Below are positions 7,054 through 46,136 of a stretch of DNA of 54,258 bases, one piece after another. Source of the DNA: Patescibacteria group bacterium (lineage in GTDB: Bacteria; Patescibacteriota; Patescibacteriia; 2-12-FULL-60-25); the NCBI GenBank assembly GCA_018830085.1, contig JAHJSR010000101.1, forward strand, positions 1 to 54,258, in the 5' to 3' direction. The stretch's first letter is position 1. Each line of letters opens with the position of its first letter. The notes beneath the pieces are model-generated. The model had not been told where the DNA came from, ran no database searches, and saw nothing but the letters and a program-made list of their open reading frames with translations. The position numbers and the translations under genes are program-made.

Positions 7054-7070
7054 ATTCCTAAACAACATTT

Positions 7071-7095
7071 AAAAACGCCTTACTAAGGCGTTTTT
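7071..7095. terminator. bidirectional terminator between convergent genes
   Basis: Perfect 12-nt arms, aaaaacgcctta-c-taaggcgttttt, giving an A-run/T-run on both strands. Overlaps the stop codon of the minus-strand gene. Confidence 0.7.
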
Positions 7096-8006
7096 AAATA
7101 GTAAAACCCGTTTATATAACTTGTAGTGTTATTAGGATCAGCGCCATATTCAGTACTAATAGCATAATCCATCTCCTCAAAAATAACTGCCTTGGTACTA
7201 AAGAAACCTTGCAGCAAAGCAAATCCTCCAGCGCTATCAGTAAAAGCATCTGTTGCAAATTTTAATTGATCCCAATTATTTTCTGCCAGCCACGAACGCG
7301 TCATCTTATCATTTATACGTGCTTTTTCATCAGTCAAATAATGACTCATATCCGAAGAAATAATAATAAAATCATCCCCAGACACAACGCTCTGTAAATC
7401 CTTACCAAACTGTATAAGATTTTTCCTTGGTATATCTATATGAATAAAAATAGGCACAACTTTAGCTTCAGGAAAATAAAATTTAATATATGGCATCAAG
7501 GAACCAACGCCATGTTCATTATTAAAAAAATAACCATCATACAACCTGCAACCCACATCAGTTAACAAATCAACTTTTTCAACATCACTTTCCACTACTC
7601 CAAATACAGTAGAATAATTAGCTTGATGACAACTAACTCCACTTCCGGCAGAAAAATGATCTGGCGAAATAATATAAAAATTTTCAATATCAGACCGAGA
7701 ACTATTTAAGCTCATAAAAAATTTAGCCTGTAAATCTGCGGCCAAAACATGATGATTAATTATTCCTGCAATGGGTTTTTGTTCTAAAACAATAAAATTA
7801 TTTTCAAGCACTCTTCTTAATACTTTTTCATCTAAAAATTTTGTATTTATTACTTCATTATATTTATCTAAACCATTATTTTCTACTTCAATATCAATAT
7901 CCCGCCCCTCATTCACAACTACTTGTTTTGAATTACAACCCATACTAAAAAACACCAAAATTACAATGATTATAATTAAATGAAAATATCTATTCCTCTT
8001 CTGCAT
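7083..8006 (-). CDS. Memo / AmmeMemoRadiSam-B-like protein predicted to be an exported lipoprotein
   Basis: Memo-family motif order: IINHHVLAA, IISPDHF, NNEHGVGSLMPYIKF, VVPIFI, IIISSDMSHYL. The N-terminus has a TM/signal segment with lipobox FFSMGC. ATG at 8006; the ORF-track start at 8057 adds 17 aa. Confidence 0.7.
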   Translation of the reverse strand: MQKRNRYFHLIIIIVILVFFSMGCNSKQVVVNEGRDIDIEVENNGLDKYNEVINTKFLDEKVLRRVLENNFIVLEQKPIAGIINHHVLAADLQAKFFMSLNSSRSDIENFYIISPDHFSAGSGVSCHQANYSTVFGVVESDVEKVDLLTDVGCRLYDGYFFNNEHGVGSLMPYIKFYFPEAKVVPIFIHIDIPRKNLIQFGKDLQSVVSGDDFIIISSDMSHYLTDEKARINDKMTRSWLAENNWDQLKFATDAFTDSAGGFALLQGFFSTKAVIFEEMDYAISTEYGADPNNTTSYINGFYYLKTP

Positions 8007-8060
8007 AAAAAAATAACGGGAGCTGCTTTTAAGCCAACCCCCGCCATCAATCTTCATAGC

Positions 8061-11000
8061 TTATTTAACGCTCATCTTCTCGGTCAATGACACGACAGCC
8101 TCCTCAGGAGCTCGCATAGACTGCAATAAGGCACCTTCAGCTGTATATTCACCTAAAGAAACCACCCTAGCCTTATATGTAATATTTTGACCTTTAAGAT
8201 CCTTACAAGCTATAAAAGATATCTCACCTCCAGAATAATCATAAGCAAAACTCGTATAAGATCTCGACCAAGTATCAAAACCTCGAGCAATAAGTGGGAC
8301 CAATGTTGCCGGTAATCGATCTCTTACCATATAACAGCCATCTTGAGCACCTGATTGCCATTTTAAACTCAAACTAACTTCCACGATATCACCTTCACTA
8401 AACCCACTATCAGACTTTGAGATATTTTTATAACTCCTAGAAATACTTAATGCTTTGCTAGTAAAATCAATATCACCCGCCATTCTTTTTAGATAAGATG
8501 CTGCAGCCGGACCATTAACACTAATAATTCTAAAATTATTCCACTCATCCGCAGTCAAAGTAATCACTTCAAATGGATTATTTGCCAAGTCCACTTTTTT
8601 AACATCATTACCAATCGCATACTCAATCTGAACATCAACATCAGACAAAACTGGCACAACTCTTTGTAGATAAATAGCACGATCTAAAACATTCAAAGCA
8701 TCATCAGACCAATTTGATTGTACGTACTTGCTAAGAGATTCTGCTGCCGGATGCGCCATAGAAGCTGCTAAAGCTGCAGCCTGAGCAGTTGCCTCTAAAA
8801 TCTCTCCCTCATCATCACTAACTTTAATTTTCAACAAATCATCCTTCTGTTCTCCAAGTTTCAACAAATCATCAAGCAACAATCTTGCCGCCTCTCTATC
8901 ACCTGCCGCTTCCACACCCCTAATAACCGCCAACTTTTCTCTCCAGTTCAAATCACTTTGCTGTGAAGCGATACGTAATCTCGGCAATACAGGTTCACCT
9001 AAAGCCGCCAAACCAGACAATGCCTCAATCGAACTCTCACGAGAACTCTTTCCATTATCAGTAATTTCCCAAAAATAATTTGCCAATTCTATACGATCAA
9101 ACAAATCAGGCATGGCTACCGCGGCTTTAGCAGAAATATTTGGATCAGCAGATGCATAAGGCAAAATTGCCAAACCACCACCTGGTTCAATTTGATAAGC
9201 CAGCAAATCACCAGAATCATCCATAAAACTATCATCTGCAAAATATTTTACCATTAAATCACTCATCATACGTCCAGCTAAAACCGCTTCCAATCTCGCT
9301 GACCAAGGATGCGCTAGACTCTGTACCTCATACCTCATACTTGCCCTAGATTTTGATTCAAACACTAAGTCAATTTGGCTAGAAATACCCGAATCAGGCA
9401 AACTAACACCAGGACCCAATTCGATCACCTCACGTTCTTCATGCGAAGATCTAGTGCTAATAACATTAACTGTTTTTTCTATTGCATCTGTCTTGCCTCC
9501 GGCTGACACATTAATTATTGCTTTATGACTGCCCAAACTCAAACTATCTAAAGCCAAATAAACCGCATCATTTACTTTCCCATTTATTTCTTGATTATTT
9601 ACTCCCAACGTAGGAATCGAAATCGTATAATTAATGTCACCGACCTGTTGCAACCCAACCCCATGAGCTCTTAACTTCAAAACTGGTTTATCTGTAATTA
9701 ATAAATCTTGAGGTAAAACAGCTTCCACAAAAACCGGCTTTGTAACAGGTACTAAAATAACATTATTGCCAGCTTGCATATCCGGAGATATGGCCACGCC
9801 AGTCAACCGCCATGAAGTAATATTGTCCGGAACCGTAAATTTAGCCATAGCATAACCACCCTTATCAGTCTGCATTACCATAAAACCAGCTTGATCCTTA
9901 AAATTCTTCCTAACGGCTTCGGATGCCATCATACCACCCATCTCAGCACCACCACCTCCGCCTGCAAAGGCTCCATCTGCTTTATGAGTTCTTTCGGTTG
10001 ATAAAATACCATTTGGCAACCATCTATAAAGTTGACTCAAAGTATACTCTTCAACGTTAAACCTGGCCGCCTTCATCAAAGCTTCATCAACCACAGCTAC
10101 AGCGATTCTTACATCCTTAATTGGATCACCATTTTTATTGGTAACTTTTGCTCTTAATTCTACTTGAGATCCCGGAGCATAACTATCTTGATTTGTTTCA
10201 AAACTCAACATTAAATCTTTCTGATCCGTATTAAATGAAGCATTGTATTGTGTTTCTGCAAATCCCGAAGGCGTAAAAGCAACACCATAAACAGTAACAT
10301 TAGGAATATCAAGTTCACTGTAAGTAAACTTATACTGAGAATCTTGTGATACTGCTACTGACTTAATACCATTAGCCACCCTAACAAATAAATAAGATGC
10401 TTGATTGGAACTAAAAGGTTCTTTATTCTGATAAAATCTTAATTCAACTTCATCACCCAATTCATAATCACTCTTATCTTTATCCAACCCCACAGAGTCT
10501 AAACTTAAATCATCATTAAAGTCACCCGTATAACCACTCACAGAACCTTCTCTATAAATTGAATTGTACAAAGCATATCTCGTTCCATCTCTTTGATCAA
10601 ACCAAGAAATCACTCGATAACTTATCCCTGACTTTGCGTCAAATCGCAATATCGCTTTACCAGCTGCGTCAGTAATCGATTGCATCTCACCAACTTCTAC
10701 ACGCCTACGTTGATATCTATAATTTGGAACTACTGTTTTATTTATTGAATCATAGTATGTGCCGGTTTGAATTTTATCCCAGTACTCCTCATAAACCTTA
10801 CTCTTTATAACAACTTCCGCATCACCACCCATAATCGCTGTCTGAGTATCTCGTCCCGATATCTTACTTAAATCAACATTCTTAACATCAAACTCTAAAA
10901 CTGCCTTACCGTCAGTGCCACGTACAGACTGACTGTTAAAACTGTTTTTTCCACGCCAAACCTGAACGTCAGTTTGTGCAGAAATCTCACCTTCTTCACC

Positions 11001-13364
11001 AATTATCGGCATTGCTTCAAGTTGCAAAGTAGTATAATCACCGCAATATGGATATTCACTGCTTAAATCACAATCCGCTTTTTTAGTTTTATACTCAAAC
11101 TCAGCCATGCCAGAATCATCCGTTTTTAAAGTAATATTTTCAGAATCCTTAAATCCACCAAAAATATCTAAACCAATTTCAGCATTAGCAAAAGGAGTAC
11201 CATCAAAAAACCTAACTTCAACATTACCCTTAACTACATCCCCTGCATAAACTGCATTATTATCTGTAGTAATGTTTATATAGTAAGCCGGTTTAATGAC
11301 GTCTCTAATTTCAACTGACCTGGTCATCGCCTCTGAACCATTTTGCAGTAGCACCAAGCTATAATATCCAGCCTTCATAGCACCTTTCCACTGTAATTCA
11401 CCCTTAAAAAAACCTTGATCATCAGTTTGTAAAACCGCAGATGCATAAACCTTCTCTTTATAATTACCATAACTGTATGAATTTGACCTCAATTCAACAG
11501 TTACCTCACCAGCGCCCTGCTTGGTATCCCTATTCTGCATTACACCAAAAAAATCAATTTTATCTTGAGTTCTATAAAGAGGTCTGTCCGCAAAGATATA
11601 ACTCCAATTGTTTAAACCAGCCTCTGTACCTGCATTGTAATTAAAATACCAATACATTGATGAATATCTAATTGGTAAAATAAGCCCTTTATTATCATTA
11701 CCTATTTTTATATATTCTGCAGGTGCCTTCTTATCAGACAAACTCGCACCATCATCCACATATTCTTTCCAATATTCTGGAGTTGAGATCCTCGCTAATC
11801 CTTGCCCGTCAGTTTCATAATCTTTCCCGTTCATTTCCAACTTTTGATTTGATAAAGATTTATGCGTCTCATGATCAGTAACCCAAACTAAAATTTGATC
11901 TCTATCTACCATTGCATATGCACCTACATTGGTTTTTTGTAACAAAAACCAAACCGAATCACCTTTAAATGTAGTAAGTTTAACAACATAAAAACCCTTT
12001 TCCACATTATTAGGCAATCTAATAAATTCATACCACACATCATCTGACGACTCTATCTGTGTAGAAAAACTAAATACCTGAGATTTTGCATATTTTTCCA
12101 AAATTGGCGATGCTTTATCTGGAGCATATACCCACTCAGGAATTTCATCTATCTGTTTTATTACTTCACTAGCATCATCCATCGAAATCTTATAGCCAAT
12201 CGCTTCTACATTTGTATTTTTTAACTCGCTCGAAGCAGAAAGTGTGACAATTGTTTCTTTTCCTACAGATGACTCCAATGTCGGACTGGTTAAATATAAA
12301 TATGATTCTGATTCCGATTCAGAACCATCTTCCGTTTCAAATCGAATCACAAAATCATTCTCCAGAGACTTCCCATTCTTAACACCCCAACCTTTTTTAT
12401 AGGTTACGGTATAAATTGTTTCTGGTGCTAATGGTTTATTAGGTAAAAATACCAATGTACGACCATGAATCTCAAACTTGCCCTCAACGAATGGCTTTAT
12501 CTCAAAATAATTTTGAATATCTTCCCAATCCGTTTGACTCAACATAATCTCAATGGATGTATCCAATGGTACGCTTGTCGATTGATTCCCAGGCACTGAT
12601 CTAATTACTTCAAAAACATCTTGAGTTTGAATTGCCCAAGAAAACTCTCTAGGTCTGACCTCTCCACCATCTTCTTGTACCGCAGTTTGTATAGTAACCT
12701 GATAAACCTCCCCCGGATTTAAATCTTTTTTAGGAGCTATCACATATTCACCATTCCCTTCTTGTTTAATATCAAAATCTACAAATGATGTATCATTATC
12801 AGGTGCATTTACCGGCTTTATACGTAAACTGTCTTTTAAATCACTCTCACTAACATCCACTTTAGATACCACTCTCAAAGTAGTATCAACTAATGCGCCA
12901 TTAGGAGTATCATTTTCTGCCTGCACAGCAAACGCATCTCCGGCATGAGCTGCTGGTATCATTAACGATAAAGTAGCCACTCCCAATTTTGATTGATCTT
13001 GATTTCCAAATTTAAAATTACCACTTGATTGGACAAAAACCAATAACGCAATCGCACACACGGTAGCGAAACCTCCTGCCCATACGTACCATCTCTGAAA
13101 CAATGGATTTGATTTTTTGCCATTAGACTTAGAGGTGCTCTTCTCTGATTTTTTCGCACTCAAATTTTTTGCCATTTGCTGCAAATGTTCACGTTGACTC
13201 TTCATGACCTTAGCATCCATCTCCTTTACCTCCTTCGCATCCTCGCTAAGCGCCTTGGCCATGCGTAAATATGGCTGGTCCTTTGGACTAGCTTTATCTT
13301 TACCTTTTTCGAGCACTTCATTTATTCTGAGTGCGTCATTTTCTTGGGTATTTTTCATACTCAT
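8061..13364 (-). CDS. membrane-anchored alpha-2-macroglobulin family protein lacking the thioester; putative anti-sigma factor
   Basis: a2M hallmark VRKNFKDQAGF...FTVPDNITSWRLTGVAIS (nt 9781-9915). About 90 aa of hydrophilic N-terminus, then one TM (WYVWAGGFATVCAIALLVFV). No CxEQ; HPWSARLEAV sits at the expected site. The ATG at 13364 is 4 nt after the sigma stop; the 13385 start is TTG. Confidence 0.85.
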   Translation of the reverse strand: MSMKNTQENDALRINEVLEKGKDKASPKDQPYLRMAKALSEDAKEVKEMDAKVMKSQREHLQQMAKNLSAKKSEKSTSKSNGKKSNPLFQRWYVWAGGFATVCAIALLVFVQSSGNFKFGNQDQSKLGVATLSLMIPAAHAGDAFAVQAENDTPNGALVDTTLRVVSKVDVSESDLKDSLRIKPVNAPDNDTSFVDFDIKQEGNGEYVIAPKKDLNPGEVYQVTIQTAVQEDGGEVRPREFSWAIQTQDVFEVIRSVPGNQSTSVPLDTSIEIMLSQTDWEDIQNYFEIKPFVEGKFEIHGRTLVFLPNKPLAPETIYTVTYKKGWGVKNGKSLENDFVIRFETEDGSESESESYLYLTSPTLESSVGKETIVTLSASSELKNTNVEAIGYKISMDDASEVIKQIDEIPEWVYAPDKASPILEKYAKSQVFSFSTQIESSDDVWYEFIRLPNNVEKGFYVVKLTTFKGDSVWFLLQKTNVGAYAMVDRDQILVWVTDHETHKSLSNQKLEMNGKDYETDGQGLARISTPEYWKEYVDDGASLSDKKAPAEYIKIGNDNKGLILPIRYSSMYWYFNYNAGTEAGLNNWSYIFADRPLYRTQDKIDFFGVMQNRDTKQGAGEVTVELRSNSYSYGNYKEKVYASAVLQTDDQGFFKGELQWKGAMKAGYYSLVLLQNGSEAMTRSVEIRDVIKPAYYINITTDNNAVYAGDVVKGNVEVRFFDGTPFANAEIGLDIFGGFKDSENITLKTDDSGMAEFEYKTKKADCDLSSEYPYCGDYTTLQLEAMPIIGEEGEISAQTDVQVWRGKNSFNSQSVRGTDGKAVLEFDVKNVDLSKISGRDTQTAIMGGDAEVVIKSKVYEEYWDKIQTGTYYDSINKTVVPNYRYQRRRVEVGEMQSITDAAGKAILRFDAKSGISYRVISWFDQRDGTRYALYNSIYREGSVSGYTGDFNDDLSLDSVGLDKDKSDYELGDEVELRFYQNKEPFSSNQASYLFVRVANGIKSVAVSQDSQYKFTYSELDIPNVTVYGVAFTPSGFAETQYNASFNTDQKDLMLSFETNQDSYAPGSQVELRAKVTNKNGDPIKDVRIAVAVVDEALMKAARFNVEEYTLSQLYRWLPNGILSTERTHKADGAFAGGGGGAEMGGMMASEAVRKNFKDQAGFMVMQTDKGGYAMAKFTVPDNITSWRLTGVAISPDMQAGNNVILVPVTKPVFVEAVLPQDLLITDKPVLKLRAHGVGLQQVGDINYTISIPTLGVNNQEINGKVNDAVYLALDSLSLGSHKAIINVSAGGKTDAIEKTVNVISTRSSHEEREVIELGPGVSLPDSGISSQIDLVFESKSRASMRYEVQSLAHPWSARLEAVLAGRMMSDLMVKYFADDSFMDDSGDLLAYQIEPGGGLAILPYASADPNISAKAAVAMPDLFDRIELANYFWEITDNGKSSRESSIEALSGLAALGEPVLPRLRIASQQSDLNWREKLAVIRGVEAAGDREAARLLLDDLLKLGEQKDDLLKIKVSDDEGEILEATAQAAALAASMAHPAAESLSKYVQSNWSDDALNVLDRAIYLQRVVPVLSDVDVQIEYAIGNDVKKVDLANNPFEVITLTADEWNNFRIISVNGPAAASYLKRMAGDIDFTSKALSISRSYKNISKSDSGFSEGDIVEVSLSLKWQSGAQDGCYMVRDRLPATLVPLIARGFDTWSRSYTSFAYDYSGGEISFIACKDLKGQNITYKARVVSLGEYTAEGALLQSMRAPEEAVVSLTEKMSVK

Positions 13365-13368
13365 ATCA

Positions 13369-13929
13369 TTAATTTGTTGCAACAATCATTTTACGCATAC
13401 GTCCTAACGCTCTATAAATTAAAACTGCTGCGTGATTATTTGAAATATCAAGTTCCTTAGCCACTTCTTCTGTTTTAAATCCCGCATAAAAACGCAGTGT
13501 TAAAACTTCCTGATCTCTTTGCGAAAGCTCGCCCATCATCTCACCTAACTTCTCTCTTTCTAAAGTCATTTCAGTATTCCACGCTGGATCATCATCAGAA
13601 GGTGGGTCCCAAGTATCCTCATCAAGCGCACTTACCTTTTTAACCGCAGAACTGCGCCAATGATCAGCCAACGCATTAAGCGCGACTCTATACAGCCACG
13701 CGCTTATCGGCACTCCCTTCCACTCAAGCTTGTGAGCTGATTCCAACAATTTTATAAAACTTTGAGCCACAATGTCCTCGGCCGTCTCTTTGTGCCCGCA
13801 ACGTTTTAGCAAAAAGGAATACAACTGTTTAGCGTGCCTATCATATAATTCTGTAATTGCTTCAGGATCGCTCTTCAAACGATCGAAAAGAGCCTTTTCT
13901 TGCTCCATGTTTTTTGTATCAGATTGCAT
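13369..13929 (-). CDS. RNA polymerase sigma-70 factor, ECF subfamily
   Basis: Region 2 (LYDRHAKQLYSFLLKRCGHKETAEDIVAQSF...WLYRVALNALADHWR) and region 4 (LSQRDQEVLTLRFYAGFKTEEVAKELDISNNHAAVLIYRALGRMR). Confidence 0.9.
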   Translation of the reverse strand: MQSDTKNMEQEKALFDRLKSDPEAITELYDRHAKQLYSFLLKRCGHKETAEDIVAQSFIKLLESAHKLEWKGVPISAWLYRVALNALADHWRSSAVKKVSALDEDTWDPPSDDDPAWNTEMTLEREKLGEMMGELSQRDQEVLTLRFYAGFKTEEVAKELDISNNHAAVLIYRALGRMRKMIVATN

Positions 13930-14029
13930 AATAACAAACGAATAACCCCTATATTTATGACAGTATAATAACCTAAAATAATGAAAATTACAATAAAACT
14001 ACATAAAAAAAGACCGTCTACCAACGATC

Positions 14030-14671
14030 TTACGACTGAGAATCCCTGTTCCTAAGGTACTGTATATAATGATCAAACACTCTTTCCAAGTCCAAATTAA
14101 TTAATTGACTAAAATCCGGATCGTCACGCAAAACACGCAAAACCATGCTTAATGGAAACAACATTTTTACTTCAACACCTCCATTAACCCTGCTTACAGC
14201 CTGACACAACTCTAATTCACAATCCGCATGAAATAAAACGAAAAGTGTTGCTAAACTATATCCAGCCATGCTTAACACATGAGCCATCGTTTCTACATCT
14301 TTCCCATCAGATGCAAACTCTTGAATCAACAAAACCCTAGGACGAACTTTTGATTTACCATACAAATCGATAACCTCACCATTTTTTGTCGGCAAAGTTT
14401 CCGACAACAAAAACGGCAAAGAAAAATGATTGGCAACCAAAGGTGCCAATGACCTGCATCCGTGTCTTGAAGCCGCAACAACTCCAAAACTTTTTGGATC
14501 AACGTTTGCAAAAATCAAATCCAATACAACCTTCCTAACAGCGGGAATGACTTCCATGGATTCAAAATCCAATTGTACAGGAATTGGGAAACCGATTGTT
14601 GGTTGCCTAATACCAATAACCTCAAAACCTATCAAATGTACCAAAGCGTCTTTTAGCGCTTGTTCCTTCAT
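14030..14671 (-). CDS. phosphoribosyltransferase-like protein with degenerate PRPP loop
   Basis: PyrE-like layout: GVVAASRHGCRSLAPLVA, then LPTKNGEVIDLYG, then VLLIQEFASDGKDV where type-I PRTases have VLLIDDVxTTG. By eye only. Confidence 0.35.
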   Translation of the reverse strand: MKEQALKDALVHLIGFEVIGIRQPTIGFPIPVQLDFESMEVIPAVRKVVLDLIFANVDPKSFGVVAASRHGCRSLAPLVANHFSLPFLLSETLPTKNGEVIDLYGKSKVRPRVLLIQEFASDGKDVETMAHVLSMAGYSLATLFVLFHADCELELCQAVSRVNGGVEVKMLFPLSMVLRVLRDDPDFSQLINLDLERVFDHYIQYLRNRDSQS

Positions 14672-25989: not shown

Positions 25990-28011
25990 CTATTCCCAAA
26001 TATCCCTATACCCCGGCTCATCCGCATCCGGATAATCAATTTCTCCCTGCTTAGTAAGATCATAAAGATGATGTAATTGTATCCCGGAATTAGACAAAGT
26101 AATAAACGAATCATCCATATATGCAACTCGATTAATATCCTCATCATAATTACCATAATACCAACCCGACTTTAACATCGCCTGATCATCAACATGATGA
26201 GTAATCTTTCCCAACAACTCAAAACCATTCTCAACTGTTAAACGATAAACGTATGCTCCTTGAAAAGTAAACTCTCCATACTCATTACCTTCGCGATTTG
26301 AATCCGCCTTAACCTCATCATCCAGTTCCGCGACACGTACCGGCAATGCAAGTAACTGCTTAGATGGTGAATATAGAAAAGCTTTATGATTATGCAATGC
26401 CTCAGACTCCGTTCCACGATCCCCAATCTCTGTTTTCCATAATTCTTTAGGATTTGTAACGTCCGTCACATCAAACACGGCCATCTTGATACCTTGATAC
26501 CAAGCAAATCCAGCCTGACCACCACTCCACGGATCTTCACCGGCTTCTACAGTATCTTTACCAACTCCAATAACATGATTTTCATCCATCGGATGTAAAT
26601 AATCCGAATAACCGGGGATTTTTAACTTGCCTAATATCGATGGATTTTGTGGATCTTTTAAATCAAGTACAAAAAATGGATCAACTTTTTTAAATGTAAC
26701 CATATAACCTCTGTTTCCCATAAACCTCATCGAATAGATCTTTTCCCCCGGTGCTATTCCCTCTATATTTCCTGTGGGCTTCAAATCATTATCCAATATA
26801 TAAACATTGTTTGTTGAATCAGCACCCGATCTTGAAACCTGCCCTTTAGTTGTAGCTACACGTAGATAATCATTATATTCATCAAGTGAAAATTGATTCA
26901 AAAGATGCCCTGGGACTGATCCTTGTTTTTTAAACTCAATCTTTCCTTCATCCAAATTAAATTTATAAATATTAGTTTTCTCTCGATCCTCAGGAATCAT
27001 ACTGTCATAAAAAGGACGTACATCCCATTGTTGTCTTGCTACATATAAATTATCCAAAGATGCATAAACCGTTTCACTTGATCCCAAAATAACTTCACGT
27101 TGCACTTCTCCTTGTCCATTCATTGGCACAGAAGCAACCGTTAAATATTCTCGCGTCGGCTGCGGATCAAAATATCCCACATCCCCACACCCGACCATGG
27201 GTTTAAAATCTGGACTTACACTACTATCACGATAAGCCGGTACCAAATCCTTTGCCTGTGGAATCATATCCAAAGTACGCCAAGGACTCCAAGAGTTCAT
27301 TACCAAATAAACATCACCATCTATCATTCTTGATGATGACAACGATCCATCAAACTCAACAGTTCTTACCTTGTATGGTTTAACGCGATCAGATATATCC
27401 CATAATTGAGCAATTGCCACTGATCCACCCCATGCATGAGGTGCAAATTCATAAATAATGTCATCAACCAAGGGCATTGGATAAATATTATCATTATAGG
27501 TTTGTCCCATTACCATTAATCGATCACCATCAATATAAAAATCATTTGCATTAACATTTTCATCCATATCAATCTGACCAACCAACTTTGCCGAATCAGC
27601 TGGTAATATCTGTGAAATCATTATTTTATTTTTAGAAAGATGATAAACATATGTTCCATCCATTTTTAATATATCAGCTTCATCAACTCCATCGACTTGC
27701 ACATTTGTTTGAGAATAATCGGTTGCAGAATTAGGAACTGCTCCGGCCGATGAATCAGCAGTCGGCATTGCCGCCAAAGGAGCGGACTTTTGCATCATGG
27801 GTACACCAATCATATCTTCCATTATGTACTCCCTTTGACTATCTGCCTTTGCGATCTGTTCTTTTAAAACCTTGCAAGTAGTAAAACGCTCTACACCAAC
27901 AATTTGATCAGGTGGAGTTAAAGGATTAACTTTTGGTGGAGCTGTTGGCGACAAACCAAAAGTTGTAATAACAATACCCGTAAAGGTTTTAAGCAAAAAT
28001 GATGAAAACAT
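25990..28011 (-). CDS. secreted beta-propeller domain protein (COG4880 / Beta_propel-like)
   Basis: N-terminal signal/anchor. YSQTNVQVDGVDEADILKMDGTYVY is the characteristic start of this family as I remember it. Long beta-rich C-terminal region. Confidence 0.6.
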   Translation of the reverse strand: MFSSFLLKTFTGIVITTFGLSPTAPPKVNPLTPPDQIVGVERFTTCKVLKEQIAKADSQREYIMEDMIGVPMMQKSAPLAAMPTADSSAGAVPNSATDYSQTNVQVDGVDEADILKMDGTYVYHLSKNKIMISQILPADSAKLVGQIDMDENVNANDFYIDGDRLMVMGQTYNDNIYPMPLVDDIIYEFAPHAWGGSVAIAQLWDISDRVKPYKVRTVEFDGSLSSSRMIDGDVYLVMNSWSPWRTLDMIPQAKDLVPAYRDSSVSPDFKPMVGCGDVGYFDPQPTREYLTVASVPMNGQGEVQREVILGSSETVYASLDNLYVARQQWDVRPFYDSMIPEDREKTNIYKFNLDEGKIEFKKQGSVPGHLLNQFSLDEYNDYLRVATTKGQVSRSGADSTNNVYILDNDLKPTGNIEGIAPGEKIYSMRFMGNRGYMVTFKKVDPFFVLDLKDPQNPSILGKLKIPGYSDYLHPMDENHVIGVGKDTVEAGEDPWSGGQAGFAWYQGIKMAVFDVTDVTNPKELWKTEIGDRGTESEALHNHKAFLYSPSKQLLALPVRVAELDDEVKADSNREGNEYGEFTFQGAYVYRLTVENGFELLGKITHHVDDQAMLKSGWYYGNYDEDINRVAYMDDSFITLSNSGIQLHHLYDLTKQGEIDYPDADEPGYRDIWE

Positions 28012-28147
28012 AACTTATTTCAAGTTAACTAATATTAATTACAGTTTATACTGACATTAATAAAAACGCCAATCCAATATATTTATGACAAAAAAATAAA
28101 TCGCCCGGATAATCCGAACGATCTACTTCATTGGGTAAAATAATATT

Positions 28148-29016: not shown

Positions 29017-29760
29017 TTAGGGTCTTATAGATTCTTTCACCTTCATCTCAAATACAGGCGGTCTAATACCCCTTGGACATGGCGCAATCTGCTCTGCGTC
29101 AAAATAATTTTCCGTTGTGCTTGGCACTCCCAATACTCTTATACAGCCTTCCGGTTTAATAATCCTATCCAAAGGTTGACTACAATTACTAATATTCACA
29201 TGCCAAATAACACCAGACACATCTCTCATGAATATCTCCTGTCGATCAATGGCTTTAATTTGTCCTAGCATCATACCCTGCTCAGGTTGCATAAACCTTT
29301 GCATGTGTGGCATTTGAACATAACGATATCCAGGCATCATCTCTGCAAATAACTCAATCTTTTCCGAAAAACCAGCTACTGATATCGCTCCACCAAATGC
29401 AACAAAAGCCAAAACAATAGCGCTCACTACAAAAACTGTTCTATACCTATAAGCTCTTGGCGCATGCACAAAAACAACAACAGCAGCTAAAGCCATAATA
29501 AAACTCAAGCCTATCCAAAACATCGGAAGAACCGATAAAAGTTGATCTAAAAATGATTCTTTTTGATATTCCAAAATAACAGTCTGTGGATCAGTAACAA
29601 ACCAAACCGCAACAGCACTAGATGCTATTCCCACAAAAACAAATGATCCAAAAATTACCCATATCAAAATTCTCTTGGCTTTGATTTGCCAAAATGGAAT
29701 AGGTTGAGGCATCTGACCATTTTGTATCTTTTGCTCAAATTGTTCGGCTAAGCTTCTCAT
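29017..29760 (-). CDS. multi-pass membrane protein in the anti-sigma position, with a Met-rich extracytoplasmic segment
   Basis: Its start overlaps the sigma stop by 4 nt. About 30 aa of cytoplasmic N-terminus and 3 TM helices, then MMPGYRYVQMPHMQRFMQPEQGMMLGQ and a Cys-containing C-domain. Confidence 0.55.
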   Translation of the reverse strand: MRSLAEQFEQKIQNGQMPQPIPFWQIKAKRILIWVIFGSFVFVGIASSAVAVWFVTDPQTVILEYQKESFLDQLLSVLPMFWIGLSFIMALAAVVVFVHAPRAYRYRTVFVVSAIVLAFVAFGGAISVAGFSEKIELFAEMMPGYRYVQMPHMQRFMQPEQGMMLGQIKAIDRQEIFMRDVSGVIWHVNISNCSQPLDRIIKPEGCIRVLGVPSTTENYFDAEQIAPCPRGIRPPVFEMKVKESIRP

Positions 29761-30350
29761 ATAGTTTTTTTAATATATTCTGTCTTTCCAGTCTCCTTAT
29801 GAAACTTTTTCTTCGCTCTGTGGATCCAAGTAGCAACCGTACCTGCTGGAGCTTTTAAAATATCTCCTATTTCGTCATATGTCTTTTCTTCAATGTATGC
29901 CAAAACCAGCACCGTTCTATCTCTCTCTGGCAGGGTGCTTAAAATTTTATTTACCATTTGTTTTGTTAAAGATTGTTCTGCCAAATTCGAACTATCAGAT
30001 TGTGCAGCCAATAAACGCATAAAGCCTTCATCATCGTCATCAATTGAAACATCTCCCATTGCTTTCTTTTTCTTTCTGTATGCTGAAATAGTTCTATTAT
30101 GAGCAATACGGTATATCCAACTCGAAAATTTCAATGAAGGATCAAAAGCTGAAATATTTCTATAAGCATCCATAAACGACTCTTGTAAAATATCTTCTGC
30201 ATCCTCGTATGAAAAACCACTTATTCTGCGAATATATATTAAAAGACGCGACTCATAGCGTCGTATCAATGTAACAAGCGCATGCGCATCTTTTAAGACC
30301 ATTTCTGCAAGCGCTTCATCGCTTAAATTTTGATATGATTCCGGGGGCAT
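29757..30350 (-). CDS. RNA polymerase sigma-70 factor, ECF subfamily
   Basis: Region 2 (EDAEDILQESFMDAYRNISAFD...WIYRIAHNRTISAYRKK) and region 4 (LPERDRTVLVLAYIEEKTYDEIGDILKAPAGTVATWIHRAKKKF). ATG at 30350; the 30401 start is TTG. Confidence 0.88.
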   Translation of the reverse strand: MPPESYQNLSDEALAEMVLKDAHALVTLIRRYESRLLIYIRRISGFSYEDAEDILQESFMDAYRNISAFDPSLKFSSWIYRIAHNRTISAYRKKKKAMGDVSIDDDDEGFMRLLAAQSDSSNLAEQSLTKQMVNKILSTLPERDRTVLVLAYIEEKTYDEIGDILKAPAGTVATWIHRAKKKFHKETGKTEYIKKTI

Positions 30351-30408
30351 ACCGGTTAATTTAATTATACGTAAGTTAGCTGTAAATCCTTTCAAAAGCA
30401 AATTTATG

Positions 30409-30439
30409 AAAAAAAAAGAGAAGCGTTTATCACGCTTCT
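30409..30439 (-). terminator. terminator of the GC-rich 535-aa gene
   Basis: Minus strand reads agaagcgt-gataa-acgcttct-cttttttttt. Confidence 0.8.
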
Positions 30440-30506
30440 GCAGTAGATTGCCGCGTTAACCGCTGGCAAAAAAGTTCATGTCACTGTGGAGATTACATCA
30501 CCCGCA

Positions 30507-32114: not shown

Positions 32115-32294
32115 GGTTTTCTCCCCAGTCTGAAACATGGGTTTTGTAACGAACGAATGTGCGTTTCCGCAATCCAGCGGATTATCCACTATGACTTAAA
32201 ACTAGCACCCTGTCAATAATAAGAGAATAGAAAATATTATCAATATTAAAAAAATAGCTTAACCCAGCTAAATTTTAATCAACAACTAAATTAT

Positions 32295-35650: not shown

Positions 35651-35735
35651 ATCACTATTTATAACGACATTATATAACTTAAATGACAAATGACAAACCT
35701 ACTATTATATATGTTATAATACACCAACGAGGGGT

Positions 35736-45260: not shown

Positions 45261-46136
45261 CTAAATGTACACTCTTGCAGCCATTCCTAACTGATTTATC
45301 CTACCTGCCACATCCTGTAAAAAACCAATATCCAAGGGTCTAATACCCGGATCAGCTGCTGATCTTGATACAGTATATACATCCACTCGGCTAAAATGTG
45401 AGCCCTTTTTACGCAAATATCTTAACTTGTCTATATAAGCCAACAGCTCCTGTCTGGACGGAGGCTTACCATCAACACAAGAAAAACAAGTTTGAATCAC
45501 AAGCTCTGAAGACTCAGGTATCAATAAAATATTTTCCAGTATATGCTGTATCGTATCTTTCGTACCGCATACATCTTGAAAATACTTGCTAGTTCCCGCA
45601 TCCAACTTCGCCCAAACAACAGGACCTTTACCTGAAAAATTTCTCAAAGCTCCTCTCACCTTTTCCTTGTGCAACAAACCAACGTTTGTAATTAAAACAA
45701 CATCAATATCACTATAAACAGCCCTTATAGAATCTCGACAATTTAACGCCATTTCCATGGCTTCAGGAAAATATCTCGAAGAAGTTGGCTCACCATCCCC
45801 ACTAAAAGTGATTGACCGTAACTTTCTGTATTCACTCTCAACCATATCAAGAGGTGATATCTCCCAAATCTCTCCGGATCTATACATCGCAAAAAGTTTT
45901 TCCAGCTCCAAAGCTATATCATAAACATCCACAAACAAAGACGACTCAGTATTAATATCACGTTTCACTTCACAGTACCGACAATTAAAATTACAGTACT
46001 TATCTTGCAAAAGATTGATACCAAGAGACAACCCGCCCAGCCTCCGAGAAACCACGGGATAACAGTACTTAAAAGTACTAAAGTCCCTAGAATGCTGCCT
46101 TGACCAAACGGGTGAGCTATTTGACTGATTATTCAT
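45261..46136 (-). CDS. radical SAM protein (COG0731-like), function unknown
   Basis: CNFNCRYC (CxxxCxxC) preceded by VVSRRLGGLSLGINL, and GDGEPT (SAM-binding GGE-like). Strong SD AGGAAGGAGAG. Intermediate GC (28/60 in 45301-45360). Confidence 0.8.
   Translation of the reverse strand: MNNQSNSSPVWSRQHSRDFSTFKYCYPVVSRRLGGLSLGINLLQDKYCNFNCRYCEVKRDINTESSLFVDVYDIALELEKLFAMYRSGEIWEISPLDMVESEYRKLRSITFSGDGEPTSSRYFPEAMEMALNCRDSIRAVYSDIDVVLITNVGLLHKEKVRGALRNFSGKGPVVWAKLDAGTSKYFQDVCGTKDTIQHILENILLIPESSELVIQTCFSCVDGKPPSRQELLAYIDKLRYLRKKGSHFSRVDVYTVSRSAADPGIRPLDIGFLQDVAGRINQLGMAARVYI

What the first reader, a model, noticed from the sequence alone, without database searches (positions are those of the whole stretch)
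7083..13929. ECF sigma factor coupled to a giant membrane-anchored, thioester-less alpha-2-macroglobulin in the anti-sigma position
Seen in the sequence:
- The ECF sigma gene stops at 13369-13371. The first ATG of the next ORF is at 13364, a 4-nt gap. The TTG-extended ORF would overlap by 17 nt.
- That ORF encodes about 90 hydrophilic Lys/Glu-rich residues, one TM helix (WYVWAGGFATVCAIALLVFV), then about 1650 extracytoplasmic residues.
- The ectodomain carries the a2M hallmark VRKNFKDQAGF...FTVPDNITSWRLTGVAIS (nt 9781-9915).
- None of the few Cys residues is in a CxEQ context. The expected thioester site reads HPWSARLEAV (about nt 9270-9320).
- A Memo-like lipoprotein gene follows 54 nt downstream.

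Established knowledge: ECF anti-sigma factors are typically single-pass proteins encoded directly after their sigma. Bacterial a2Ms are normally soluble or lipid-anchored protease traps, often paired with pbpC. No pbpC is present here.

Inference: the a2M ectodomain may act as the sensor of a protease-triggered sigma-release switch, where bait-region cleavage leads to anti-sigma inactivation. I do not know of a described system of this type.
Basis: partly seen in the sequence, partly recalled or inferred. Interest (0 to 1): 0.8.

Follow-up and report, generated by a model that had tools for sequence, protein, structure and literature searches.

The report
Sigma factor held by macroglobulin-type membrane sensor
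A small uncultured bacterium encodes a stress-type transcription factor right next to a giant membrane protein built like the protease trap alpha-2-macroglobulin, and that protein's short inner tail probably holds the factor inactive, so damage to the outer part could switch genes on.

Summary
Window 7083-13962 (- strand) is a terminator-bounded operon: ECF sigma, then a 1767-aa single-pass alpha-2-macroglobulin (a2M)-like protein, then a Memo-like protein. The organism is a Patescibacteria (Uhrbacteria-type) bacterium.

- **a2M part.** The ectodomain has the MG/bait-region domains through MG7-CUB-TED-MG10. The thioester CxEQ is replaced by PW---SARLE in every family member.
- **Cytoplasmic tail.** It is about 75 aa, is predicted to form three helices, and matches no known family. 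It occurs only in this a2M family.
- **Linkage to sigma.**
  - In 39 assessable species genomes, 37 have both the tail and a sigma gene directly upstream, mostly 1-4 nt apart or overlapping by 4 nt.
  - The two genomes without the sigma also lack the tail.
  - Sigma and tail divergence correlate beyond the ectodomain (partial r 0.51).
- **Promoter.** TGTCAT-N16/17-CGTT lies 5-7 nt before the sigma ATG in 33 of 39 loci.
- **Independent second case.** A thioester-bearing a2M family in Bacteroidota has an unrelated tail and follows the same rule in the four loci checked.

The anti-sigma role is therefore well supported by comparative evidence, but binding is untested. The protease trigger remains an inference. 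The bait loop is conserved, and in one clade it carries a self-cleaving HINT domain. No description was found in the searched literature. Verdict: a new variant of the ECF sigma/anti-sigma kind.

The parts
14010..14031 (-). Terminator-like hairpin plus T-run after the upstream PRTase-like gene. It marks the upstream boundary of the operon.
13965..13993 (-). Sigma-70-type promoter-like site, TTGTAA-17-TATTAT. Most relatives have a TATACT box 2-4 nt upstream of the ECF-type motif.
   Evidence: This is a consensus match only.
13937..13962 (-). ECF-type promoter motif TGTCAT-N16-CGTT, ending 7 nt before the sigma ATG. This geometry implies a leaderless or near-leaderless mRNA and probable autoregulation.
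   Evidence: The same motif sits at the same distance (5-7 nt) in 33 of 39 relatives, with divergent spacer sequence. The window holds 4 matches against 0.87 expected.
13369..13929 (-). ECF (group 4) sigma factor, 186 aa. Its nearest relatives are BldN-type.
   Evidence: Pfam Sigma70_r2 and r4_2. Best NCBIfam hit is the BldN family, below cut-off. Best PDB hit is 6dxo_A at E 8e-17.
13140..13364 (-). Cytoplasmic tail, residues 1-75. Three predicted helices (4-20, 27-44, 51-75) carry the conserved P[YF]LRMAKAL..DA....MD..V...QK.HLLQMAKN. This is the putative sigma-binding (anti-sigma) domain.
   Evidence: Alignment. AF2 model, pLDDT 71. Exclusive to this a2M family among 1.84 billion representative proteins. 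Co-occurs with the sigma gene. Co-diverges with sigma.
13032..13139 (-). Variable Lys/Ser-rich linker (residues 76-91) and the single transmembrane helix (residues 92-111). Orientation is N-in, C-out.
   Evidence: Hydropathy scan. AF2 predicts a helix at 87-109. Positive charges precede the helix.
12930..12959 (-). Conserved juxtamembrane motif IPAAHAGDAF (residues 136-145; P137, A141, A144 and F145 invariant). It is an AXA signal-peptidase-like site about 27 residues after the TM helix and a candidate site-1 cleavage point.
   Evidence: Alignment. The cleavage role is an inference by analogy with RsiV.
8061..13364 (-). Whole gene for the 1767-aa a2M-like membrane protein, the putative anti-sigma and sensor.
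   Evidence: Pfam Big_5, MG2, A2M_BRD and A2M, with weak MG4, bMG3 and bMG10. 45 family homologs.
9915..9992 (-). Bait-loop equivalent, residues about 1125-1150, with the conserved Gly-rich core GGGGAEMGG. Relatives P0036, P0037, P0039 and P0042 carry a HINT self-cleaving domain inserted exactly here.
   Evidence: Conservation. HINT insertion.
8649..9914 (-). MG7 (Pfam A2M), a CUB-like beta domain and a TED-like alpha/alpha domain (residues 1151-1572). The thioester-site equivalent PWSARLE lies at 9270-9320.
   Evidence: AF2 model of residues 1100-1767. Foldseek best hit is E. coli ECAM MG7-to-C-terminus, 4ziu, E 1e-26. hhalign against thioester a2Ms gives probability 99.9. No CxEQ.
7083..8057 (-). 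Memo-like (AmmeMemoRadiSam B-type) protein with an N-terminal signal/lipobox-like segment. It is the third gene of the operon. An alternative start lies at 8006.
   Evidence: It is downstream of the a2M gene in nearly all relatives, including sigma-less ones.
7066..7100 (-). Terminator-like hairpin with a 16-bp stem at the end of the Memo-like gene. It marks the downstream boundary of the operon.
28065..28090 (-). Second copy of TGTCAT-N16-CGTT, 53 nt upstream of a secreted Beta_propel (PF09826) gene at 25990..28011. This gene is a candidate regulon member.
   Evidence: The motif is kept with diverged spacers upstream of orthologs in L054, L055 and L060.
35663..35688 (-). Third copy of the motif, 12 nt upstream of the ATG (35650) of a PdaC + DUF3298 lipoprotein gene. 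This gene is a candidate regulon member.
   Evidence: Conservation was not tested.

Best explanation
The locus is a three-gene, terminator-bounded operon of a Patescibacteria (Uhrbacteria-type) bacterium. It encodes an ECF sigma factor and its cognate membrane-bound anti-sigma factor.

**What the anti-sigma is.** It is the N-terminal cytoplasmic three-helix tail (about 75 aa) of a single-pass, N-in/C-out protein. Its roughly 1650-aa extracytoplasmic part is a complete but thioester-less alpha-2-macroglobulin.

**Resting state (inferred).** The tail sequesters sigma at the membrane.

**Activation (inferred).** An event on the a2M ectodomain triggers release. The most likely event is proteolytic cleavage at the Gly-rich bait loop, followed by the large conformational change typical of this fold. 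That change would expose the juxtamembrane region, which carries a conserved AXA signal-peptidase-like site about 27 residues outside the membrane. Site-1 cleavage and then intramembrane proteolysis would destroy the tail and free sigma.

**Output (inferred).** Free sigma transcribes its own operon from a TGTCAT-N16/17-CGTT promoter that starts at or next to the ATG. This replenishes the a2M and the Memo-like partner. It probably also drives a few other envelope genes, namely a Beta_propel protein and a PdaC/DUF3298 lipoprotein.

**Shown versus inferred.** Shown:
- the gene organisation;
- the domain architecture and the absence of the thioester;
- the co-occurrence and co-divergence of tail and sigma;
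- the conserved promoter motif;
- an independent recurrence of the architecture in Bacteroidota.

Inferred:
- tail-sigma binding;
- the trigger;
- the proteolytic release steps;
- the regulon.
For: **Operon structure.**
- Sigma and the a2M gene are 4 nt apart here. In relatives they are mostly 1-4 nt apart or overlap by 4 nt (ATGA).
- Terminator-like hairpins flank the three genes.

**Conservation of adjacency.**
- The order sigma, a2M, Memo is kept at 74, 48, 40, 34 and 28% a2M identity. Sigma followed by a2M is kept at 26%.
- Among 39 species-representative genomes with enough upstream sequence, 37 have sigma directly upstream.

**Co-gain and co-loss of tail and sigma.**
- All 37 also have the tail (L047 checked by eye).
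- The two without sigma (L034, L051; same a2M clade, 34-37% identity) have short, unrelated Pro-rich N-termini.
- The outgroups P0044 and P0045 start directly with a lipoprotein signal or TM helix and have no sigma.

**Nature of the tail.**
- The tail profile hits only this a2M family among 1.84 billion representative proteins.
- It is predicted as three helices joined by variable linkers.
- The sigma's best solved relative is BldN in the RsbN-BldN complex (6dxo). Its anti-sigma RsbN is three helices with flexible linkers, a TM helix and a large ectodomain (PMC6101532).

**Co-divergence.** The partial correlation of sigma and tail distances, controlling for the ectodomain of the same polypeptide, is 0.51 (0 of 2000 permutations reached it). 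The sigma-Memo value is 0.17.

**Promoter.**
- TGTCAT-N16/17-CGTT lies 5-7 nt before the sigma ATG in 33 of 39 loci.
- The motif is enriched in the window, and all four copies sit directly upstream of ATG codons that open long ORFs.
- It is conserved upstream of Beta_propel orthologs.

**a2M identity.** Pfam, Foldseek to ECAM, Salmonella a2M and C3, and hhalign. Type II thioester-less a2Ms are cleaved in the bait and still trap proteases (PMC5764988).

**Independent recurrence.** In Bacteroidota, tail-bearing thioester a2Ms P0060, P0094 and P0122 each follow an ECF sigma, whereas the tail-less P0163 does not. The same short tail motif sits on a different protein after a second ECF sigma.
Against: - No direct or predicted tail-sigma interface was obtained.
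- The tail matches no Pfam, NCBIfam or PDB anti-sigma domain by sequence or fold.
- The AF2 tail model has only moderate confidence (pLDDT 71, pTM 0.31).
- The distance-correlation test is a weak type of evidence. Both proteins are cytoplasmic and share a phylogeny.
- The bait loop is conserved (invariant G1138, G1143, G1144), unlike the hypervariable baits of broad-spectrum traps. This fits a specific processing site better than a general protease sensor.
- The bait lies about 1000 residues from the membrane, so cleavage there cannot by itself create a site-2 protease substrate.
- The AXA motif is also present in the sigma-less relatives L034 and L051, so it is not specific to signalling.
- The -35 element TGTCAT lacks the AAC typical of ECF promoters (my own knowledge of ECF consensus).
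- A five-genome subclade (the L003 type) lacks the CGTT element.
- The motif before the Memo-like gene is seen only in the window and its closest relative, where coding constraint explains it.
- A second ECF sigma lies just upstream of the Beta_propel cluster, so assigning that gene to this sigma's regulon is tentative.
Confidence: 0.6

Rival explanations
1. Co-expression only. The sigma is a dedicated activator of a defence operon (a2M plus Memo-like protein) and is regulated some other way, for example transcriptionally or by an unlinked factor. On this view the N-terminal tail is a cytoplasmic anchor or assembly segment that does not bind sigma.
For: - No known anti-sigma domain is detected in the tail.
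- The a2M-Memo pair exists without any sigma (L007, L034, L051), so sigma is an add-on to an older module.
- Some ECF groups lack anti-sigma factors (general knowledge of ECF classification, PMC7826278).
Against: - The tail is lost exactly where sigma is lost and is present wherever sigma is present: 37 with both, 2 (plus 2 outgroups) with neither, and no mixed cases.
- Tail divergence tracks sigma beyond the ectodomain.
- Stop and start codons are only 1-4 nt apart or overlap by 4 nt in most loci, which suggests translational coupling.
- The same rule holds in Bacteroidota with an unrelated tail.
Confidence: 0.15
2. The tail is an anti-sigma, but the signal is not attack by foreign proteases. 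The a2M-like ectodomain would be a structural, adhesion or maturation module. Cleavage at its conserved Gly-rich loop would be an intrinsic processing step, by a dedicated endogenous protease or by the HINT domain in one clade. Sigma release would then report envelope assembly, host contact or ectodomain integrity rather than trapping of hostile proteases.
For: - The bait loop is conserved rather than hypervariable.
- A HINT/BIL domain is inserted precisely in this loop in P0036, P0037, P0039 and P0042. It has the canonical N-terminal Cys and C-terminal HN but no +1 nucleophile, which predicts self-cleavage rather than splicing.
- The thioester needed for covalent trapping is absent.
- Complement C3, C4 and C5 are matured by cleavage at the equivalent position (my own knowledge).
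- CPR bacteria are thought to be episymbionts whose large surface proteins mediate host contact (PMC8080830).
Against: - Thioester-less MagD still traps proteases after bait cleavage (PMC5764988).
- The Bacteroidota counterparts keep an intact CxEQ and TED, which is the hallmark of true protease or nucleophile capture.
- No adhesion-type domains were detected in the ectodomain beyond MG/Ig-like folds.
Confidence: 0.25
3. Export-coupled homeostat. Signal peptidase cleaves constitutively at IPAAHA|GD and releases the a2M ectodomain. The leftover tail-TM stub is degraded, so each exported a2M molecule frees one sigma. The circuit would then measure a2M production or export rather than an external signal.
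For: - The AXA motif with Pro at -5 is conserved in all family members, including the sigma-less L034, L051 and P0045.
- This suggests a general processing site for the family.
Against: - The motif lies about 27 residues after the hydrophobic helix, far beyond a normal signal-peptide c-region.
- Constitutive release combined with an autoregulated promoter would give runaway positive feedback.
- There is no experimental or structural evidence for cleavage.
Confidence: 0.1

Closest known systems
RsbN-sigma BldN of Streptomyces (class III anti-sigma domain; PDB 6DXO; PMC6101532)
   Same: - The sigma here is most similar to BldN among solved structures and NCBIfam models.
- The partner is encoded next to sigma.
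- The partner has an N-terminal cytoplasmic region of three helices joined by variable linkers, then one TM helix, then a large extracytoplasmic domain.
- The partner has no sequence similarity to other anti-sigma factors.
   Different: - No detectable sequence similarity between RsbN and this tail (the profile search of PDB found nothing).
- RsbN homologs are reported only in Streptomyces.
- The RsbN ectodomain is 272 aa of unknown fold, not a 1650-aa a2M.
- The sigma scores below the BldN family cut-off (112.7 against 206 bits).
RsiV-sigma V of Bacillus and Clostridioides (ligand-gated site-1 cleavage by signal peptidase)
   Same: - It is a single-pass anti-sigma whose ectodomain directly binds the stress agent.
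- A conformational change then exposes an AXA site to signal peptidase, and a site-2 protease follows (my own knowledge).
- This locus has a conserved AXA motif just outside the membrane.
- One candidate regulon gene here has the same PdaC + DUF3298 domains as the RsiV ectodomain.
   Different: - The sensor domain here is an a2M fold.
- The AXA site lies much further from the TM helix.
- No cleavage has been shown.
- The sigma belongs to a different ECF group.
Type II bacterial alpha-2-macroglobulins (MagD of P. aeruginosa, YfaS of E. coli; PMC5764988, PMC3735191)
   Same: - They have the a2M architecture with a bait region but no CxEQ thioester.
- They associate with the inner membrane.
- MagD is cleaved in the bait and traps the protease non-covalently.
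   Different: - MagD is a signal-peptide periplasmic protein held at the membrane by partners of a six-gene mag operon. Here the protein has its own N-terminal TM anchor and cytoplasmic tail.
- There are no mag/yfa-type neighbours here. A sigma gene lies upstream and a Memo-like gene downstream.
- No NCBIfam a2M model is hit, and sequence similarity to solved a2Ms is marginal (E 0.07-0.26).
Type I bacterial alpha-2-macroglobulins (ECAM/YfhM, Salmonella a2M; PDB 4ziu, 5a42, 4u48)
   Same: - These are the best structural matches for the MG7-CUB-TED-MG10 half (Foldseek E 1e-26 to 3e-25).
- The overall domain order is the same.
   Different: Type I proteins have the thioester, a lipoprotein anchor and a pbpC neighbour. 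None of these is present here.
Classical regulated-intramembrane-proteolysis ECF systems (RseA-sigma E, RsiW-sigma W) with class I anti-sigma domains
   Same: - A co-transcribed single-pass anti-sigma.
- An autoregulated promoter with CGT in the -10 element.
- Envelope-related candidate targets.
   Different: - No class I domain (four-helix, zinc-binding or not) is detectable.
- The ectodomain is roughly ten times larger than those of RseA and RsiW (my own estimate of their sizes).
- The site-1 and site-2 proteases have not been identified.
Bacteroidota (Saprospiraceae/Lewinellaceae) sigma + tail-TM-a2M family found here (P0060 family)
   Same: - An ECF sigma is directly upstream, with a 4-nt overlap in L110 and L111.
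- A short cytoplasmic tail and a TM helix precede a giant a2M ectodomain.
- The tail-less paralog checked lacks sigma.
   Different: - The tail is unrelated (motif HEFDFxPxAWxKMExLL, about 40 aa).
- The a2M keeps CxEQ and TED and carries extra CarboxypepD_reg and Plug or TonB_C domains.
- There is no Memo-like neighbour.
- The organisms are Gram-negative. To my knowledge this family is also undescribed.

Membership tests
ECF (group 4) sigma-70 family | Only regions sigma-2 and sigma-4 are present, in a protein of about 170-200 aa. | tested here: met
   Sigma70_r2 at residues 28-94 and Sigma70_r4_2 at 126-178, in 186 aa. TIGR02937 scores 87.4 bits against a cut-off of 42.9.
ECF (group 4) sigma-70 family | Own promoter of ECF type: a conserved -35 element, a 16-17-nt spacer and CGT in the -10 element. 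| tested here: inconclusive
   TGTCAT-N16/17-CGTT is conserved in 33 of 39 loci at a fixed distance from the ATG. However, the -35 element lacks the usual AAC, and no transcription data exist.
BldN family of ECF sigma factors (TIGR02952) | Score above the equivalog cut-off. | tested here: not met
   112.7 bits against a cut-off of 206.45. It is the best hit only.
Membrane-bound ECF anti-sigma factor (generic) | Encoded directly downstream of sigma and co-transcribed with it. | tested here: met
   A 4-nt gap here. In relatives the genes are mostly 1-4 nt apart or overlap by 4 nt. Adjacency holds in 37 of 39 genomes.
Membrane-bound ECF anti-sigma factor (generic) | N-terminal cytoplasmic helical domain of about 50-100 aa, followed by a single TM helix and an extracytoplasmic domain. 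| tested here: met
   Helices at 4-20, 27-44 and 51-75, and a TM helix at 92-111. These are predictions.
Membrane-bound ECF anti-sigma factor (generic) | Binds and inhibits its cognate sigma. | not testable with these tools
Only indirect support exists: co-occurrence and co-divergence.
Class I anti-sigma domain (four-helix, with or without the zinc-binding HxxxCxxC motif) | Sequence or profile match to class I domain families, or the HxxxCxxC motif. | tested here: not met
   No Pfam, NCBIfam or PDB match at E up to 10. There is no Cys or His motif in the tail.
Class III anti-sigma domain (RsbN type) | Three helices with flexible linkers, with helix 3 clamped between sigma-2 and sigma-4 of a BldN-type sigma. 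| tested here: inconclusive
   The three-helix prediction with variable linkers, and a sigma nearest to BldN, both fit. No sequence similarity was found, no complex model could be made, and Foldseek on the tail gave nothing.
Alpha-2-macroglobulin / thioester-protein superfamily | MG domains, a bait-region domain, MG7 (Pfam A2M), and CUB-TED-MG8/MG10 in the canonical order. | tested here: met
   Pfam MG2, A2M_BRD and A2M above cut-off. Foldseek to ECAM, Salmonella a2M, C3, C5 and CD109 at E 1e-26 to 1e-20. hhalign probability 99.9 over 603 columns.
Alpha-2-macroglobulin / thioester-protein superfamily | CxEQ thioester in the TED domain. | tested here: not met
   No CxEQ in any of 46 family members. 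The aligned site reads PW---SARLE.
Type I bacterial a2M (ECAM/YfhM) | Thioester, lipoprotein signal and a pbpC neighbour. | tested here: not met
Type II bacterial a2M (MagD/YfaS) | Thioester-less a2M with a bait region. | tested here: met
   A bait-loop equivalent is present at residues about 1125-1150.
Type II bacterial a2M (MagD/YfaS) | Signal-peptide periplasmic protein inside a six-gene mag/yfa operon. | tested here: not met
   The protein has a TM anchor with a cytoplasmic tail. Its neighbours are a sigma gene and a Memo-like gene.
Memo / AmmeMemoRadiSam system protein B | Pfam PF01875 or TIGR04336 above cut-off. | tested here: met
   62.9 bits against 27, and 72.5 bits against 26.
Memo / AmmeMemoRadiSam system protein B | Adjacent AMMECR1 and radical-SAM partners. 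| tested here: not met
   Neither partner is in the operon here or in relatives. The only radical-SAM ORF is 37 kb away, at 45261..46136.

The most novel reading that the evidence does not exclude
The alpha-2-macroglobulin fold has been recruited as the extracellular sensor of a transmembrane gene switch. This happened at least twice independently: as a thioester-less form in Patescibacteria and as a thioester-bearing form in Bacteroidota. Cleavage of the bait loop, either by an attacking protease or by a HINT domain inserted there in one clade, drives the fold's large conformational change. That change leads to destruction of a cytoplasmic tail of a new anti-sigma type and to release of an ECF sigma factor. 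In effect this would be a bacterial protease-activated receptor that couples an innate-immunity-like trap to transcription.
Probability: 0.3. Interest if true: 0.85.

Novelty: new variant of a known kind. Interest (0 to 1): 0.72.

Why it matters
If confirmed, this would give bacterial a2Ms a signalling role in addition to passive trapping. It would also add a new sensor domain, and probably a new anti-sigma domain type, to the ECF repertoire.

It would identify one of the few recognisable envelope-stress circuits in the reduced genomes of Candidate Phyla Radiation bacteria, which are thought to live attached to other cells and to be exposed to their hydrolases.

The system is compact and its parts are clearly delimited: a sigma, a 75-aa tail and a defined promoter. 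That makes the idea directly testable in a heterologous host, and potentially useful as an orthogonal sigma/anti-sigma pair or as a protease-responsive switch.

The parallel family in Bacteroidota suggests the principle is general rather than a curiosity of one lineage.

Tried and rejected
- **Complex prediction.** A sigma-linker-tail fusion was submitted to structure prediction to mimic a complex.
- **Family searches with the tail.**
  - Pfam and NCBIfam at E up to 10 gave no anti-sigma family.
  - A profile search against PDB sequences gave only a chance match (E 0.15) of helix 3-linker-TM to the coronavirus spike HR2-TM segment, which I rejected as compositional.
  - Foldseek with the tail model gave nothing below E 5.
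- **Exhaustive profile search.** The tail profile was run against 1.84 billion representative proteins to find it on other ectodomains. None was found, only the same a2M family and its fragments.
- **Genome scan.** A broad 29-sequence a2M alignment was too diverse to seed the scan. It was repeated with 18 closer sequences.
- **ECF reclassification paper.** The text does not mention macroglobulin or Patescibacteria, and its supplements are not held.
- **Internal promoter before the Memo-like gene (8067-8092).** It is present only here and in the 74%-identical relative, where it overlaps conserved C-terminal codons. It is absent from all other loci, so I treat it as unproven.
- **Reading the upstream motif as an ordinary sigma-70 promoter.** I rejected this because C and G of CGTT are invariant in AT-rich DNA and the spacing to any TATAAT-like hexamer is wrong. 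A separate sigma-70-like box does lie just upstream.
- **A different cognate anti-sigma.** The only other candidate in the window is coupled to a second sigma.

Full report
**1. What is in the sequence**

On the minus strand, three ORFs lie head to tail:
- 13369..13929, 186 aa;
- 8061..13364 from the first ATG, 1767 aa (a TTG at 13385 would extend it);
- 7083..8057, 324 aa.

The first is an ECF sigma factor, with Sigma70_r2 and Sigma70_r4_2 only and TIGR02937 above cut-off.

The second begins 4 nt after the sigma stop. It has a hydrophilic N-terminus and one hydrophobic helix at residues 92-111. It gives Pfam hits to Big_5, MG2, A2M_BRD and A2M, plus weak MG4, bMG3 and bMG10, but no hit to the thioester domain model.

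The third is Memo-like (PF01875, TIGR04336) and has an N-terminal signal/lipobox-like segment.

Terminator-like hairpins lie immediately upstream of the sigma promoter region (14010-14031) and at the end of the Memo-like gene (7066-7100). The three genes therefore look like one transcription unit.

The only correction is that an ATG at 8057 lies 3 nt after the a2M stop.

**2. Organism and family**

The big protein has about 45 full-length relatives. Those that carry names are Patescibacteria, Candidatus Uhrbacteria or Magasanikbacteria. A scan of one genome per species found 46 loci. Their titles read Patescibacteria or Uhrbacteria, or carry uninformative labels such as 'uncultured Gammaproteobacteria', 'bacterium' and 'uncultured bacterium', which I take to be submitter placeholders.

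The neighbourhood is housekeeping and syntenic with relatives: H+-PPase, CYTH, FGGY kinase, DedA, G3P dehydrogenase and the Fe-S cluster genes. This is a vertically inherited chromosomal locus, not a mobile element.

**3. The ectodomain is a complete a2M without a thioester**

An AF2 model of residues 1100-1767 (pLDDT 74) shows beta domains, then an all-helical domain, then a C-terminal beta sandwich.
- Foldseek matches it best to E. coli ECAM MG7-to-C-terminus (4ziu, E 1e-26).
- The next matches are Salmonella a2M, complement C3 and C5, CD109 and human a2M.
- Profile-profile alignment against thioester-bearing bacterial a2Ms gives probability 99.9% over 603 columns. It places the family's PW---SARLE opposite YPYxCxEQxxSR.
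- No member of the family has CxEQ, while the distant a2Ms in the same search do.

Thioester-less (type II) bacterial a2Ms are known. MagD is cleaved in its bait and still traps the protease (PMC5764988). This feature is therefore not new in itself. What differs from type II is the anchor (its own TM helix plus a tail) and the neighbours (no mag/yfa genes).

**4. The cytoplasmic tail**

Residues 1-75 align across the family as three conserved helical blocks separated by variable linkers. A low-complexity Lys/Ser/Pro-rich linker and the TM helix follow. AF2 predicts helices at 4-20, 27-44 and 51-75 and a TM helix at 87-109.

The tail hits nothing in Pfam, NCBIfam or PDB, by sequence or by fold. 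An exhaustive profile search of 1.84 billion representative proteins finds it only on this a2M family.

**5. Linkage between tail and sigma**

This is the core of the case.
- **Adjacency in sampled relatives.** Sigma is directly upstream of the a2M gene in relatives at 74, 48, 40, 34, 28 and 26% identity. Overlaps of 4-10 nt are seen in the four most distant of these.
- **Species survey.** Of the 46 species loci, 39 contain the a2M start plus at least 600 nt upstream. Of these, 37 have the sigma gene there. The same 37 have the tail (L047 by inspection).
- **Exceptions.** L034 and L051 belong to the same a2M clade, yet they have short, unrelated Pro-rich N-termini and no sigma within 3-5 kb.
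- **Outgroups.** Two more distant a2Ms that begin directly with a lipoprotein signal or a TM helix also lack sigma.
- **No mixed cases.** No locus has one element without the other.
- **Co-divergence.** Pairwise divergence of the tail follows that of sigma even after removing what the ectodomain of the same polypeptide explains. The partial r is 0.51, and 0 of 2000 permutations reached it. The sigma-Memo value is 0.17. This is weak evidence on its own, but it points the same way.
- **Structural analogy.** The sigma's closest solved relative is BldN in the RsbN-BldN complex. RsbN is a three-helix tail with flexible linkers, one TM helix and a large ectodomain, encoded beside its sigma and without similarity to other anti-sigmas (PMC6101532).

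**6. Promoter and possible regulon**

Upstream of sigma, 33 of 39 loci have TGTCA[TC] or TGTAAT, then 16-17 nt, then CGTT, with the ATG only 5-7 nt further on. The spacer sequences differ between species.
- The invariant CGT at -10 and the spacing are ECF-like.
- The fixed short distance to the ATG implies a leaderless or nearly leaderless transcript. This is an inference.
- A sigma-70-like box (TATACT in most relatives, TTGTAA-17-TATTAT here) lies just upstream. It would allow basal expression.

In the window the motif occurs four times against 0.87 expected, always on the gene strand and just before an ATG that opens a long ORF:
- before sigma;
- 9 nt before the Memo-like ATG;
- 53 nt before a secreted Beta_propel protein;
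- 12 nt before a PdaC + DUF3298 lipoprotein.

The Beta_propel site is kept, with diverged spacers, in orthologous loci L054, L055 and L060. The Memo site is explained by coding constraint and is absent from other relatives.

A second, SigW-like ECF sigma with its own overlapping membrane partner lies at 29017..30401, just upstream of the Beta_propel cluster. The regulon assignment is therefore tentative.

**7. How it probably works**

The comparative evidence supports the tail as the sigma-sequestering domain and the a2M ectodomain as the input domain. The nature of the input is less clear.

In favour of proteolysis:
- The fold is built to convert one cleavage into a large conformational change.
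- Type II a2Ms respond to bait cleavage.
- The Bacteroidota analogues keep the thioester.

Against a broad protease bait:
- The loop between the bait-region domain and MG7 is short and has an invariant Gly-rich core, GGAEMGG.

A striking observation bears on this. In the Magasanikbacteria-type clade, which also has sigma upstream, a roughly 135-aa HINT domain is inserted exactly inside this loop. It begins GG|CF.(E/A)GT and ends YVHN|(E/D)KGGG. It therefore has the catalytic Cys and the terminal Asn but no +1 nucleophile, which predicts self-cleavage rather than splicing. This suggests that breaking the chain at this loop is central to the family's function, whoever does the cutting.

Just outside the membrane, all members carry IP[AE]A[HNY]A|[GA]DAF, an AXA signal-peptidase-like site. 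By analogy with RsiV, I propose that the conformational change exposes this site, and that intramembrane proteolysis and sigma release follow. None of these steps has been shown, and the motif also exists in sigma-less relatives.

**8. An independent second case**

One distant hit, P0060, is a 1922-aa Bacteroidota protein with CFEQ, TED, CarboxypepD_reg and Plug domains, a 45-aa cytoplasmic tail and a TM helix. It also sits directly after an ECF sigma, with a 4-nt overlap.
- **Family size.** Its family has more than 1500 members (Saprospiraceae, Lewinellaceae).
- **Tail frequency.** 70 of the top 120 carry the tail motif HEFDFxPxAWxKMExLL followed by a TM helix.
- **Context of tail-bearing members.** Two further tail-bearing members, 42% and 47% identical to P0060 over the aligned part, also follow an ECF sigma.
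- **Tail-less control.** A tail-less, signal-peptide member does not follow a sigma.
- **Modularity.** The same tail motif is found on an unrelated OMP_b-brl_2 protein after another ECF sigma. It therefore behaves as a modular sigma-associated tail.

The tails of the two phyla are unrelated, so the architecture arose at least twice.

**9. Comparison with what is known, and novelty**

The system is an ECF sigma/anti-sigma pair, which is a known kind. Its sensor domain has not been reported in that role. Four full-text searches combining ECF or anti-sigma terms, or the Candidate Phyla Radiation, with macroglobulin found nothing relevant. The ECF reclassification paper does not mention it. The only CPR mention found is a remark that large a2M-domain membrane proteins may be defensive (PMC8080830).

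The tail fails the test for class I anti-sigma domains. It resembles class III only in outline. I therefore rate the finding as a new variant of a known kind, with a real possibility that the tail is a new anti-sigma domain class.

**10. Limits**
- No binding or complex model was obtained.
- The tail model has moderate confidence.
- Promoter function, leaderless transcription, the regulon, the trigger and the release proteases are all inferred.
- The whole genome was not available, so I could not count sigma factors or find a site-2 protease.
- Only four Bacteroidota contexts were examined.

Noticed in passing
Relatives P0036 (residues 1116-1233), P0037, P0039 (1143-1263) and P0042. The equivalent position in the window is about 9915-9992 (-).: A HINT/bacterial-intein-like domain is inserted exactly inside the conserved Gly-rich bait loop (GGAEM-GG|CF..GT ... 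YVHN|[ED]KGGG). The catalytic Cys and the terminal HN are present, but there is no Cys, Ser or Thr at +1, so self-cleavage rather than splicing is expected. P0036 also has the ECF sigma upstream (L005).
   Followed up: partly
L110 3444-9769, L111 2372-8715, L112 2351-8787. The control locus is L113.: A large Bacteroidota (Saprospiraceae/Lewinellaceae) family of thioester-bearing a2M proteins has a roughly 40-aa tail (HEFDFxPxAWxKMExLL) and a TM helix. Each of the three tail-bearing members checked lies directly after an ECF sigma, and the tail-less paralog checked has none. The same tail motif sits on an OMP_b-brl_2 protein after a second sigma in L110 (11425-13115).
   Followed up: partly
window 29017-30401 (-): A second ECF sigma is present (about 197-214 aa, SigW-like, below cut-offs). 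It overlaps by 4 nt a 247-aa multi-TM protein with no family match, which is presumably its own anti-sigma. The pair lies upstream of a 232-aa secreted repeat protein and the Beta_propel gene.
   Followed up: partly
window 28065-28090 (-) and 35663-35688 (-): Copies of the sigma promoter motif TGTCAT-N16-CGTT lie just upstream of a secreted Beta_propel (PF09826) gene and a PdaC + DUF3298 lipoprotein gene, which has RsiV-like ectodomain domains. The first 13 nt of the Beta_propel site are identical to the sigma promoter (TGTCATAAATATA).
   Followed up: partly
window 13930-13962 (-) and equivalent positions in L001-L053: The distance from CGTT to the sigma ATG is fixed at 5-7 nt in 33 loci. This implies leaderless translation of the sigma gene in these Patescibacteria.
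   Followed up: partly
L007 2469-8209, L034 4746-10702, L051 3271-9407: The a2M and Memo-like gene pair persists in genomes and lineages that have neither the sigma nor the tail. An extracytoplasmic Memo-like protein is therefore an older, unexplained partner of this a2M family. No AMMECR1 or radical-SAM partner is adjacent.
   Followed up: no
window 12930-12959 (-), residues 136-145: A near-invariant juxtamembrane motif IPAAHAGDAF, with the AXA pattern of signal-peptidase sites, lies about 27 residues after the TM helix. It is also present in sigma-less family members.
   Followed up: partly
L005 6061-6086, L021 1032-1057, L022 5067-5092, L028 5070-5095, L039 5064-5089: In several relatives a TGT[CA]AT-N16-CGTT match recurs inside the tail-coding region, about 60-90 nt into the a2M gene. 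It could be an internal promoter or a by-product of conserved codons (C-[NH]-D...L..L). The window has no such match.
   Followed up: no
L047 4806-10134: In one Patescibacteria genome the a2M gene is split into two ORFs (977 and 819 aa). This is either a frameshift or pseudogene, or an assembly error.
   Followed up: no
window 30001-32200: A local G+C rise (0.485 against about 0.37 elsewhere) coincides with a 560-aa ORF (30507..32189, -) that has no Pfam match and with overlapping ORFs on the opposite strand.
   Followed up: no
whole window: GC skew is negative in every 2-kb bin (-0.07 to -0.36), and most genes lie on the minus strand. This is consistent with a single replication arm and strong gene-strand bias.
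   Followed up: no
window 13035-13220 (-), tail helix 3 to the TM helix: The tail profile's best PDB sequence match is the coronavirus spike HR2-TM segment ([20 protein letters not shown] against RPWYVWAGGFA...), at E 0.15. I judged this a chance compositional resemblance.
   Followed up: yes
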